Shown: positions 29,802-30,959 of the stretch, piece by piece | How the letters are laid out: the number at the start of each line of letters is the position of its first letter | Position numbering within the stretch: position 1 is the stretch's first letter | The notes under the pieces: model-generated | Database searches by the model: none | Told to the model about the DNA's origin: nothing | The model's input: the letters and a program-made list of their open reading frames with translations, nothing else | Made by a program: the position numbers and the translations under genes | From: a virus | IMG/VR virus record: IMGVR_UViG_3300045988_164919 | Location: 64,001 to 104,717 of that record | Direction: 5' to 3' (one strand) | Length of the DNA: 40,717 bases

Positions 29802-30959
29802 TTAGTTCTCCTTTTTAAAATCAAAAATTATTTTTAATTCTTCTACTTTATCGAGCTGTTCCCAAGGGCTATTACATTCAATGCGACCAAAATGACCGAA
29901 GCAAGCATAGGGTAAATAGCGAGTATGCTTTAAATCAAATTTATGAATAATACTACGCGGTGCAAAATCAAATGTCTGATTAACTGCTTCAAGAATTTCA
30001 GCGATAGGTTTCTTTTCTGTGCCAAAACAATTAATATCAATAGATGCAGGTTCTGTCTGCCCAATAATATAAGCAACTTGAATCATACATTTATCACAAA
30101 CACCAGAAGCTACAAGATTTTTAGCTACATAACGTGCCATATAAGCACCAGATCTATCTACTTTAGAACTATCTTTACCGCTAAATGCTCCGCCACCATG
30201 TGGTGCATAACCACCATATGTATCTACAACGATTTTACGTCCTGTTAATCCGGTATCAGCCGCAGGTCCGCCCTTTACAAACTTACCTGTTGGGTTAATA
30301 TAAAATTTACAATCTTTTTTAATGGCATAACCTTGAAGGGCAATATTACAAATGTTCGTAATATCGGGCGTTATTTCCTTAATACTATACTTGTCTTTGT
30401 GTTGGGCCGATACGACAATTGTATCTACCCCTTCAAAGTTGCCATCATCATCGTATTGGACAGTTATCTGACATTTGCCGTCAGGTAACGCCCAAGGTAG
30501 CAAATCATTTTTATACTTACTAAACATAATGACCGAGATATTGTTAGCAAGCTGCTGGGCAATAGGCATATAATTTTCTGTTTCGTTAGTTGCATAACCA
30601 AACATCATGCCTTGATCTCCAGCACCATCTCTATCGACACCCGCAGCGATGTCAGGGGATTGATTTACTACATTAATAATATATGAACAAGTGTCGCAGT
30701 TAAATCCTGCTTCATCATTGTCATAACCAATAAACCTTAAAGTCTCTCTTGCAATTTCCTGATAAGGAATAGATTGTTCTGTTTTAGCTGTAATCTCTCC
30801 CATTATGTGGAAAAGACCTGGACTAATAGTACATTCACAAGCTACTCGGGCATCAGGATCAAGCTGGAGGACATAATCCAGAATAGCATCACTTACCTAA
30901 TCACAAACCTTATCAGGATGACCGGCAAAAACGCTCTCACTGGTAAATAAATAACTCAT
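29802..30959 (-). CDS. metK: S-adenosylmethionine synthetase MetK (about 385 aa) with one in-frame TAG at a conserved Gln position.
   Basis: Track ORF 29802..30803 has the MetK signatures GAGDQGMMFGYATNETENYMP, GGGAFSGKDSSKVDRSGAY and INPTGKFVKGGPAADTGLTGRKIVVDTYGG. Reading 5' of it through TAG (30897-30899) gives [20 protein letters not shown][TAG]-VSDAILDYVLQLDPDARVACECTISPGLFHIMGEITAK. This aligns with E. coli MetK [27 protein letters not shown], with TAG falling on the Q. SD is AAGGAGGAAATATTAT-ATG and the ATG is at 30959-30957. Confidence 0.8.

What the first reader, a model, noticed from the sequence alone, without database searches (positions are those of the whole stretch)
29802..30959. 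A phage-encoded SAM synthetase carries an in-frame TAG at a conserved Gln, showing that TAG is recoded to Gln in this genome
The MetK N-terminus reads GHPDKVCD-[TAG]-VSDAILD. In E. coli MetK the homologous segment is [16 protein letters not shown], and the stop falls on the invariant Gln. The radical SAM gene (7 TAGs), the Cys-repeat peptide (2), the tail-fibre genes (3), the endonuclease-like gene (at least 5) and several others are continuous and protein-like only when TAG is read as sense. TAA and TGA still end genes. TAG recoding to Gln (code 15) is known in crAss-like and Lak phages. Here it co-occurs with strong Shine-Dalgarno usage, which argues for a non-Bacteroidetes host. A phage metK is also notable in its own right: the same genome encodes a radical SAM enzyme that consumes SAM.
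Basis: partly seen in the sequence, partly recalled or inferred. Interest (0 to 1): 0.65.

Follow-up and report, generated by a model that had tools for sequence, protein, structure and literature searches.

The report
Phage metK gene with sense TAG codon
A gut phage's SAM-synthetase gene has an in-frame TAG "stop" that is almost certainly read as glutamine, as are 33 other TAGs in the window; this is a real but already well-known kind of phage genetic-code change.

Summary
metK lies on the minus strand at 29802-30959 and has 385 codons. It has one in-frame TAG at codon 21 (30897-30899), inside [18 protein letters not shown]. All three MetK domains are intact.

The TAG is kept in four related IMG/VR contigs, where the gene is under strong purifying selection (pN/pS 0.06-0.16). 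Across the window, 34 in-frame TAGs lie in 13 of 64 genes. No gene ends in TAG (49 TAA, 15 TGA).

Only TAG-as-sense raises coding density (0.73 to 0.82). Standard-code control phages show no such gain.

TAG means Gln:
- Homologue columns give Q +18 bits, and every other residue scores negative.
- Among five related genomes, TAG most often alternates with CAA or CAG (19 of 33 alternatives).

The window holds no tRNA(CUA). Its closest relatives carry one about 27 kb beyond the window start.

- The gene is on the minus strand.
- The Gln column is not invariant (R or Q in phage MetKs).
- TAG recoding in phages of Firmicutes is already published.
- Phage metK genes are common.

Verdict: correct, and a new member of a known kind. 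Interest is modest.

The parts
29802..30959 (-). metK (S-adenosylmethionine synthetase), 385 codons, ATG start, TAA stop
   Evidence: Translation. PDB phmmer E = 7e-115 to E. coli MetK over residues 3-376. Pfam S-AdoMet_synt_N, _M and _C all above their cut-offs. pN/pS 0.06-0.16 against relatives.
30897..30899 (-). In-frame TAG, codon 21 of metK, read as Gln
   Evidence: It aligns with the Q of E. coli GHPDKIADQ. It is TAG in all four related contigs, L001-L004. Both substitutions in codons 1-20 are synonymous.
30969..30974 (-). Shine-Dalgarno AGGAGG, 9 nt upstream of the metK ATG
   Evidence: Read directly from the sequence. SD-like motifs precede 47 of 64 genes against a 5.7% background.
9209..10549 (-). 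Radical SAM/SPASM-like gene with 7 in-frame TAGs (codons 29, 37, 70, 108, 249, 325, 426)
   Evidence: Pfam Radical_SAM 28.8 bits (just under the 29.5 cut-off) and Fer4_12 22.7 bits. In about 77 homologues, Q is the majority residue at 4 of the 7 TAG columns. The 66%-identical relative L084 has CAA/CAG at 5 of 7.
8587..9237 (-). Cys-rich 216-aa protein with 2 in-frame TAGs
   Evidence: phrog_6085. TAG at codon 127 is CAG in two relatives.
7899..8600 (-). AT-rich ORF of unknown function with 6 in-frame TAGs
   Evidence: All 6 TAGs are conserved in three relatives. The longer version of this ORF (to 8873) is the alternative frame of the Cys-rich gene.
23535..24443 (-). HNH/homing-endonuclease-like gene with 6 in-frame TAGs
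   Evidence: phrog_374, E = 5e-59. TAG exchanges with CAA at codons 71 and 245, and with GAA at codon 152.
1036..2791 (-). Two Mtd_N tail-fibre-like genes (1036-2253 and 2276-2791), 2 in-frame TAGs each
   Evidence: Pfam Mtd_N. TAG exchanges with CAA/CAG at codons 291 and 390, and relatives have TAG where the window has CAG or GAA.
10536..14516 (-). Further TAG-bearing genes: 10536-10817 (1 TAG), 11233-12660 (2), 13689-14516 (2). The genes between them are TAG-free.
17439..18026 (-). Signal-peptide protein with 1 in-frame TAG (codon 82)
   Evidence: The codon is CAA in contig 169451.
21742..23460 (-). 572-aa protein with 1 in-frame TAG (codon 555)
   Evidence: The TAG is conserved in 3 relatives.
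31428..31865 (-). 145-aa protein with TAG at codon 3
   Evidence: The codon is CAA or AAA in two relatives, and relatives carry TAG at codons 17 and 48. It is called as 145 aa in the ENA record.
3645..7470 (-). tRNA array of 14 tRNA-like genes. None has a CUA anticodon.
   Evidence: ARAGORN finds 11 and Rfam 14. The lineage's tRNA(CUA) lies outside the window, about 27 kb beyond its start in the closest relative.

Best explanation
This is part of the genome of a 137-188 kb human-gut tailed phage that uses genetic code 15: TAG is translated as glutamine, and TAA and TGA remain stops.

metK is an intact, selected gene. Its full-length product carries the N-terminal GHPDK motif, and it is made only when the ribosome reads TAG at codon 21 as Gln. 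Under the standard code, translation would yield a 20-residue peptide plus, at best, an N-terminally truncated fragment starting at Met54.

Decoding is most likely done by a phage-encoded amber-suppressor tRNA (anticodon CUA, unpaired 1:72, G73, encoded CCA). This tRNA lies outside the window, in a second tRNA cluster, and would be charged by host enzymes in competition with host RF1.

TAG use is concentrated in the tail-fibre, radical-SAM and homing-endonuclease blocks and is nearly absent from the block of small, early-like genes. This fits the published idea that recoding delays expression until the suppressor is available.

What is shown: the reading frames, the Gln assignment, the conservation, and the presence of the tRNA in relatives. 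What is inferred: that the window's own genome carries the tRNA, that it is charged with Gln, and any role in timing.
For: 1. metK integrity. E = 7e-115 to E. coli MetK across the TAG, with three Pfam domains.

2. Conservation. The TAG is retained in 4 related contigs at 94-96% nucleotide identity. pN/pS is 0.06-0.16, and the changes upstream of the TAG are synonymous. An independent ENA human-gut scaffold carries the same genes, with metK called at 385 aa.

3. Specificity to TAG.
- Coding density is 0.731 under code 11, 0.823 with TAG as sense, 0.714 with TGA as sense and 0.741 with TAA as sense. The last two also lower the total score.
- Same-lineage loci show the same specific gain, and eight standard-code control loci show none.
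- All 42 in-frame stops in radical SAM homologues are TAG.

4. TAG is not a terminator here.
- Stops are 49 TAA, 15 TGA and 0 TAG, with P = 8e-4 against controls.
- The base after a sense TAG is G12/A11/T6/C5. After real stops it is T32/A24/G7/C1.

5. The amino acid is Gln.
- Summed log-odds over 8 TAG columns are Q +18.4 bits. The next best is R at -14.
- Of 47 sites with TAG in at least one of five genomes, 31 vary. Their alternatives are CAA 12, CAG 7, AAA 4, GAA 3 and others 7. This is the same spectrum that CAA and CAG codons themselves show.

6. Suppressor tRNA.
- The closest relative (contig 152007) has a canonical 75-nt tRNA(CUA) next to tRNA-Gln(UUG) and a ROOL RNA.
- The same tRNA is in contig 3300029858_000001.
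- A different tRNA(CUA) is in contig 166471.
- Homologous ones are in more distant relatives.

7. Several TAGs per gene. With up to 7 TAGs per gene here and 12 in relatives, decoding must be efficient. Occasional leak-through would not give full-length protein.

8. Uneven use. TAG makes up 25% of Gln codons in 1-14.6 kb and 2% in 26.1-40.7 kb (Fisher p = 9e-7).

9. Literature. Code 15 has been predicted and validated by mass spectrometry in gut phages, including phages of Firmicutes.
Against: - No tRNA(CUA), release factor or aminoacyl-tRNA synthetase is present in the 40.7 kb window itself. The suppressor is inferred from relatives.
- One relative (contig 164317) showed no CUA tRNA in the parts that could be read.
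- There is no direct protein evidence for Gln at any TAG.
- The metK column alone fits Arg as well as Gln.
- The homologue sets are redundant, and the five genomes are related, so the counts overstate the number of independent events.
- The window holds an odd tRNA-like gene with a possible UUA anticodon (4582-4655). Its role is unexplained.
Confidence: 0.92

Rival explanations
1. TAG is only a leaky or regulated stop. Most ribosomes terminate there, a small fraction read through, and the TAG-bearing genes are expressed at very low levels or as truncated products. On this view the codon is not truly reassigned.
For: TAG is only 12% of Gln-type codons and is present in 13 of 64 genes. metK has a single TAG near its 5' end. 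No suppressor tRNA lies in the window. Near-cognate tRNA-Gln read-through of UAG is known (my own knowledge).
Against: Genes carry 6-7 TAGs here and 10-12 in relatives. Low per-codon read-through would give essentially no full-length radical SAM or tail-fibre protein. TAG is never used to end a gene. Relatives encode dedicated tRNA(CUA) genes. TAG and CAA/CAG interchange freely, as synonyms do.
Confidence: 0.05
2. TAG is a sense codon but encodes an amino acid other than Gln, for example Arg, Lys, Glu, Tyr or pyrrolysine.
For: The metK column is Arg in 49 of 75 other phage MetKs. Some TAG sites alternate with AAA, GAA, TAT or TCG. Some more distant relatives have a 90-nt tRNA(CUA) with a long variable arm next to tRNA-Tyr. 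ARAGORN labels CUA tRNAs 'Pyl' by default.
Against: Log-odds over 8 homologue columns are Q +18.4. R is -14, K -16.5, E -19 and Y -23. 19 of 33 alternative codons at variable TAG sites are CAA or CAG. The lineage's CUA tRNAs have an unpaired 1:72 and G73, like the phage's own tRNA-Gln (A1-U72, G73). No pyl genes were seen among the annotated proteins.
Confidence: 0.02
3. The metK TAG is a defect: a nonsense mutation in a decaying pseudogene, or a sequencing or assembly error. The other TAG-split ORFs would then be separate short genes.
For: Under code 11 a 333-aa ORF from Met54 remains. A single C-to-T change turns CAG into TAG.
Against: The same TAG is present in five independently assembled genomes, with pS 0.13-0.21 and pN/pS 0.06-0.16 on both sides of it. 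The Pfam N-terminal domain is continuous across it. The intein-bearing alleles keep it too. TAG-split fragments lack their own starts and align as single proteins to homologues.
Confidence: 0.01

Closest known systems
Genetic code 15 (TAG to Gln) in gut bacteriophages: crAss-like, Lak and the 'gemstone' clades of Borges et al. (bioRxiv 10.1101/2021.08.26.457843), validated by mass spectrometry in Peters et al. 2022 (PMC9523058)
   Same: In-frame TAGs lie in conserved genes and align with Gln. TAA and TGA are kept as stops. The genome is AT-rich and prefers TAA. Recoding is concentrated in structural or late modules. The lineage encodes tRNA(CUA). The host probably uses the standard code. Firmicutes hosts are already reported for such phages.
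   Different: This lineage has no close relative among GenBank phages. It is represented only by IMG/VR and ENA contigs. Its TAG-rich set includes a radical-SAM block, a homing endonuclease and one metabolic gene (metK), not only structural and lysis genes. I could not assign it to a named clade.
phAss-1 / proposed Phassvirus (Babkin et al. 2023, PMC10607447)
   Same: A human-gut tailed phage of about 136 kb, with TAG in 28% of its ORFs read as Gln, many tRNAs and several tRNA-Sup(CUA) genes, and no dedicated synthetase. The window's lineage is 137-188 kb, has TAG in 13 of 64 genes and has two tRNA clusters.
   Different: No detectable nucleotide similarity, and no close protein similarity, to any GenBank phage record. 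It is therefore a different lineage.
Bacterial and phage MetK (S-adenosylmethionine synthetase, EC 2.5.1.6)
   Same: All three domains are present, with GHPDK, GAGDQG and GGGAFSGKD motifs, and the protein aligns end to end with E. coli MetK. Phage and prophage metK genes are common.
   Different: It is only about 50% identical to any bacterial or other phage MetK. It carries a sense TAG at codon 21. Two sister alleles carry an intein-like 322-aa insert.
Classical amber suppression (E. coli supE, tRNA-Gln with CUA anticodon)
   Same: A tRNA with a CUA anticodon inserts Gln at UAG in competition with RF1. The weak or unpaired 1:72 and G73 are tRNA-Gln identity features for GlnRS (my own knowledge, not tested here).
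   Different: Here the suppressor is carried by the phage and the phage's own genes depend on it. Charging by the host enzyme is inferred, not shown. Many Bacillota make Gln-tRNA through GluRS plus GatCAB, so the charging route is unknown.

Membership tests
Code-15 (TAG to Gln) recoded phage | In-frame TAGs interrupt otherwise intact, conserved protein genes | tested here: met
   metK and the radical SAM gene with 7 TAGs aligned end to end with homologues. In total there are 34 TAGs in 13 of 64 genes.
Code-15 (TAG to Gln) recoded phage | Coding density rises under TAG-as-sense but not under other reassignments | tested here: met
   Density goes from 0.731 to 0.823 with TAG as sense, against 0.714 for TGA and 0.741 for TAA, the last two with lower scores. 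Controls show no gain.
Code-15 (TAG to Gln) recoded phage | TAG positions correspond to Gln in homologues | tested here: met
   Q scores +18.4 bits and all other residues are negative. Q is the majority residue at 4 of 7 radical SAM columns. CAA/CAG make up 19 of 33 alternatives at variable TAG sites.
Code-15 (TAG to Gln) recoded phage | TAG is not used as a terminator, while TAA and TGA still are | tested here: met
   Stops are 49 TAA, 15 TGA and 0 TAG. P = 8e-4 against AT-rich standard-code controls. The base following the codon differs between sense TAGs and real stops.
Code-15 (TAG to Gln) recoded phage | Phage-encoded suppressor tRNA with CUA anticodon (common but not universal: detected in about 40% of such genomes) | tested here: inconclusive
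   Absent from the window. Present in the closest relative, contig 152007, about 27 kb beyond the window start, and in contigs 3300029858_000001 and 166471. The window's own genome beyond its ends could not be read.
Code-15 (TAG to Gln) recoded phage | Gln is actually inserted at TAG in the proteins | not testable with these tools
   This needs proteomics. It has been done for crAss-like phages only (PMC9523058).
MetK / S-adenosylmethionine synthetase | Three-domain MetK architecture with N-terminal, central and C-terminal domains | tested here: met
   PF00438 121.5 bits, PF02772 116.4 bits and PF02773 200.1 bits, all above their cut-offs. E = 7e-115 to solved MetK structures over residues 3-376.
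MetK / S-adenosylmethionine synthetase | Catalytic activity (ATP + Met to SAM) | not testable with these tools
   Only conservation of sequence motifs was seen.
Pyrrolysine (UAG to Pyl) decoding | pylT/pylS/pylBCD genes, with UAG confined to methylamine methyltransferase-type genes | tested here: not met
   TAGs occur in 13 unrelated genes and align with Gln. No Pyl-related Pfam or PHROG hits were found among the roughly 30 larger window proteins scanned. The 'tRNA-Pyl' label is only ARAGORN's default name for a CUA anticodon.

The most novel reading that the evidence does not exclude
The single, fully conserved TAG at codon 21 of metK could act as a timing gate. metK is one of only two TAG-bearing genes in an otherwise TAG-free, early-like block. 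Active SAM synthetase would then be made only once the phage's amber suppressor is expressed. That would couple SAM supply to the TAG-rich radical-SAM enzymes, which consume SAM. In other words, stop-codon recoding would schedule a metabolic gene, not only structural and lysis genes.

A second reading is not excluded either: the non-canonical tRNA-like gene at 4582-4655, with a possible UUA anticodon, might take part in stop-codon decoding.
Probability: 0.2. Interest if true: 0.55.

Novelty: new member of a known kind. Interest (0 to 1): 0.3.

Why it matters
In practice, this window and its relatives must be annotated with translation table 15. Under table 11, metK, the radical SAM gene, the tail fibres and the endonuclease are all broken into fragments, and coding density falls from 0.82 to 0.73.

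Biologically, it adds a large gut phage lineage with no close relative in the GenBank phage collection searched, probably infecting Bacillota, to the known TAG-to-Gln recoded phages. It also gives a clean case in which a metabolic gene depends on suppression. It does not change what is known about how or why phages recode stop codons.

Tried and rejected
1. Removing any stop codon lengthens ORFs in this AT-rich DNA, and TAA most of all. I replaced it with a codon-model gene caller and control loci.

2. A test requiring 40 coding codons on both sides of a stop was too strict, because many TAGs lie near gene ends. It still gave 6 TAG, 2 TAA and 0 TGA.

3. Nucleotide and protein searches of GenBank phages found no close relative.

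4. The ORF 7056-7418 has two 'TAGs' in the part that overlaps a tRNA gene. The real gene starts downstream and has none. The 5' part of ORF 7899-8873 is the alternative frame of the Cys-rich gene.

5. I considered the tRNA-like gene at 4582-4655 (UUA-type loop) as the suppressor. It is restricted to this lineage. It became unnecessary once canonical tRNA(CUA) genes turned up in the same contigs.

6. I considered the conserved 72-nt hairpin at 4835-4906, which has CUA in a 7-nt loop. It has no T-arm, and it is absent from the recoded contig 152007.

7. I looked for a CUA anticodon that splicing of the two insert-bearing tRNAs could create. No splice position gives one.

8. Walking 10 kb beyond the window end (early-gene side) and the first 20 kb beyond the window start found no tRNAs. 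The third step found them.

9. Host inference from the best bacterial MetK hits is weak. They are about 50% identical, and pattern choice biased the hit list.

Full report
**1. The observation**

The finding's coordinates are right, but the gene is on the minus strand. Window 29802-30959 (-) reads [30 protein letters not shown]... and runs 385 codons to a TAA. The TAG is codon 21, at 30897-30899. An AGGAGG sits 9 nt upstream of the ATG. Under the standard code only a 333-aa ORF from Met54 survives, and that fragment lacks the GHPDK motif.

With TAG read as Q, the protein matches solved MetK structures at E = 7e-115 over residues 3-376. The TAG falls opposite the Q of E. coli [16 protein letters not shown]. 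All three Pfam MetK domains score far above their cut-offs, and the N-terminal domain (residues 3-102) runs across the TAG without a gap.

**2. Not an error or a pseudogene**

Four IMG/VR contigs carry the same gene at 94-96% nucleotide identity and 97-98% amino-acid identity, and every one has TAG at codon 21. The contigs are 3300045988_164317, _152007, _166471 and 3300029858_000040.

Nei-Gojobori counts give pS 0.13-0.21 and pN/pS 0.06-0.16. The only changes in codons 1-20 are synonymous. An independent ENA human-gut scaffold (ERZ28665421) holds identical genes, and its gene table already lists metK at 385 residues. Two of the sister alleles carry a 322-aa intein-like insert after GYAPHGGG and still keep the TAG.

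**3. TAG is a sense codon across the window**

All real genes are on the minus strand. I trained a simple codon-model gene caller on long TAG-free ORFs. Its results:

| Reading | Coding density | Total score |
|---|---|---|
| Code 11 | 0.731 | 7256 |
| TAG as sense | 0.823 | 7838 |
| TGA as sense | 0.714 | lower than code 11 |
| TAA as sense | 0.741 | lower than code 11 |

- The remaining gap under TAG-as-sense is largely the 4-kb tRNA array.
- Same-lineage loci gain more, going from 0.58-0.63 to 0.75-0.79.
- Eight standard-code loci with a similar range of GC content start at 0.91-0.95 and gain nothing.

The final gene set has 34 in-frame TAGs in 13 of 64 genes. Stops are 49 TAA, 15 TGA and 0 TAG. 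AT-rich standard-code controls end 10.5% of genes in TAG, so 0 of 64 has P = 8e-4.

The base after a sense TAG looks like a first codon position (G12, A11, T6, C5). The base after a real stop is T32, A24, G7, C1.

**4. The amino acid is Gln**

The metK site alone does not settle this. In 75 other phage MetKs the column is R 49, Q 25, I 1. In the 80 best bacterial hits it is Q 60, A 15, M 3, L 1, R 1. 'Invariant Gln' is therefore wrong.

The radical SAM gene (9209-10549, 7 TAGs) has about 77 homologues at roughly 50% identity in IMG/VR.
- Q is the majority residue at four of the seven TAG columns: 72/74, 71/77, 64/77 and 35/74.
- Genuine CAA/CAG columns of the same protein show a similar rate, 4 of 10.
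- A 66%-identical relative has CAA or CAG at five of the seven.
- All 42 in-frame stops in the homologue set are TAG.

Summed log-odds over the eight columns are Q +18.4 bits. The next best are R -14.0 and K -16.5.

Among the window and four related genomes, 47 codon sites carry TAG in at least one genome, and 31 of them vary. Counted once per site, the alternatives are CAA 12, CAG 7, AAA 4, GAA 3, TAT 2 and five singletons. CAA and CAG codons show the same replacement spectrum.

Two caveats apply. The homologue sets are redundant, and the genomes are related, so these counts are not independent events.

**5. How it is decoded**

The window's tRNA array (3645-7470) has 14 tRNA-like genes and no CUA anticodon.

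I walked along the closest relative, contig 152007. The first 20 kb beyond the window start hold TAG-rich tail-fibre and extra radical-SAM genes, with up to 12 TAGs per gene, and no tRNAs. A second tRNA cluster follows, about 27 kb from the window start. It contains, in order:
- tRNA-Thr
- tRNA-Gln(UUG)
- a ROOL RNA (323 bits)
- a canonical 75-nt tRNA(CUA), with loop CUCUAAA, a U1·U72 mismatch, G73 and an encoded CCA
- a RAGATH-33 RNA
- tRNA-Gly

The same tRNA is in contig 3300029858_000001. Contig 166471 has a GIY-YIG-like insertion at that spot and a different tRNA(CUA) that ARAGORN misses (Rfam 38.9 bits). More distant relatives have homologous CUA tRNAs with the same acceptor stem.

An unpaired 1:72 together with G73 resembles the tRNA-Gln identity elements recognised by GlnRS. 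That statement rests on my own knowledge. Charging was not tested.

No release factor or synthetase was seen in the parts that I read. The 10 kb beyond the window end holds early-type small genes, almost no TAGs and no tRNAs.

**6. Distribution of TAG**

| Window block | TAG share of Gln-type codons |
|---|---|
| 1-14.6 kb | 25% |
| 14.6-21.7 kb | 2% |
| 21.7-26.1 kb | 21% |
| 26.1-40.7 kb | 2% |

The difference between the first and last blocks gives Fisher p = 9e-7.

metK and the neighbouring 145-aa gene are the only TAG-bearing genes among the 34 genes of the last block. This matches the published pattern of standard-code early genes and recoded late modules. It leaves open, without showing it, that the metK TAG delays MetK synthesis until the suppressor is made.

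**7. Comparison with what is known**

- TAG-to-Gln recoding in gut phages is well described, including clades predicted to infect Firmicutes. Detectable suppressor tRNAs are reported in only about 40% of such genomes.
- It has been confirmed by mass spectrometry in crAss-like phages (PMC9523058).
- A 136-kb human-gut example with three tRNA-Sup(CUA) genes has been published (phAss-1).
- The present lineage has no close relative in GenBank phages. It is a new member, not a new kind.
- Strong SD use is real: 47 of 64 genes against a 5.7% background. Together with the ROOL RNA and the mostly Bacillota MetK neighbours, it fits a Bacillota host. That combination is not new.
- Phage metK genes are common.

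**8. Verdict**

I put confidence that TAG is read as Gln, and that metK is an intact gene dependent on this, at about 0.92. Novelty: new member of a known kind. Interest: about 0.3.

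Noticed in passing
window 4582-4655 (-): A 71-nt tRNA-like gene plus encoded CCA. It scores 48.5 bits on the Rfam tRNA model but ARAGORN misses it. The anticodon arm is UUGAA-UUUAA-UUCAA. That is either a 5-nt loop or a 4-bp stem with the 7-nt loop A-U-UUA-A-U, which would give an ochre-type UUA anticodon. 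It has G1-C72 and A73. It is 100% identical in four lineage contigs and 97% identical in a fifth, and it occurs in only 5 IMG/VR contigs. Its function is unknown.
   Followed up: partly
window 5945-6079 (-) and 7322-7470 (-): Two tRNA cloverleaves have 58-nt and 73-nt inserts in their anticodon loops. The inserts themselves have acceptor-like and T-arm-like hairpins, so each looks like a tRNA inside a tRNA. They are too short for group I introns. They are conserved in relatives L081-L084.
   Followed up: partly
window 3645-3730 (-): An 86-nt tRNA with an 8-bp acceptor stem, a 6-bp anticodon stem, a long variable arm and anticodon CCA. It scores better on the Rfam tRNA-Sec model (38.8 bits, below the gathering score of 47) than on the general tRNA model (33.9 bits). 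It resembles an allo-tRNA or tRNA-Sec that reads UGG. It is conserved in relatives.
   Followed up: no
window 6430-6500 (-): ARAGORN calls this 71-nt tRNA-like gene 'tRNA-Phe(AAA)'. Its anticodon loop is UGAAAGA, with G at position 33, and it has no encoded CCA. It is conserved in L081-L084 and L169.
   Followed up: no
window 4835-4906 (-): A 72-nt spacer between tRNA-Ala and tRNA-Asn is 98.6% conserved in three relatives. It folds into a long interrupted hairpin whose 7-nt loop, UUCUAGA, is part of the palindrome TTCTAGAA. It is absent from contig 152007.
   Followed up: partly
L003 10784-11749 and the same position in L004 (metK alleles); insertion point corresponds to window ~30186-30188: Two sister metK alleles carry a 322-aa in-frame insert after GYAPHGGG. 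It begins with Cys and ends ...ITGN followed by Cys, as an intein would. It has no Pfam hit at E <= 0.01.
   Followed up: partly
window 7899-10817 (-); L180 10717-16037: A TAG-rich, AT-rich block contains an unknown 233-aa ORF, a 216-aa protein with a long Cys-repeat C-terminus (CSGSCSGCSGSC...), a radical SAM/SPASM-like enzyme and a 93-aa ORF. It looks like a peptide-maturation cassette. Relatives carry three more radical-SAM-like genes, with 6-12 TAGs each, beyond the tail fibres.
   Followed up: no
window 11233-12660, 15150-16808, 21742-23460 (-): Three paralogous proteins of 475-572 aa share a motif, S-x-HPLDY-(L/M)-(T/S)-(M/L)-S-(D/E)-N...W-x-SC, and have C-terminal CxxC repeats. The only hit is phrog_18912, of unknown function.
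   Followed up: no
window 18120-18899, 19097-19903, 26987-27523, 37668-39017 (-): An RNA-repair-type gene set: a calcineurin-like phosphoesterase, an RlaP nucleotidyltransferase, an AAA_33 kinase and an RNA ligase. It may be a tRNA-repair system directed against host anticodon nucleases.
   Followed up: no
window 39198-39473 (-): A 91-aa product has a precomputed Pfam chorismate mutase type II (CM_2) hit in the ENA record. A phage-encoded chorismate mutase is unusual.
   Followed up: no
L267 14475-15068 and 16969-17081; L268 14803-15396 and 18119-18231: A ROOL RNA (323 bits) and a RAGATH-33 RNA flank the amber-suppressor tRNA in the second tRNA cluster of the relatives.
   Followed up: no
L171, L172, L174-L177 (about 3940-4030, or 5463-5552 in L177): More distant relatives carry a 90-nt tRNA(CUA) with a long variable arm, a U1·U72 mismatch and G73, about 570 nt upstream of a 90-nt tRNA-Tyr(GUA). 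I did not check which amino acid TAG encodes in those phages.
   Followed up: no
L268 16345-17100: In contig 166471 a GIY-YIG-like ORF, itself containing in-frame TAGs, lies immediately upstream of a non-canonical tRNA(CUA). It sits where contig 152007 has its canonical suppressor tRNA.
   Followed up: partly
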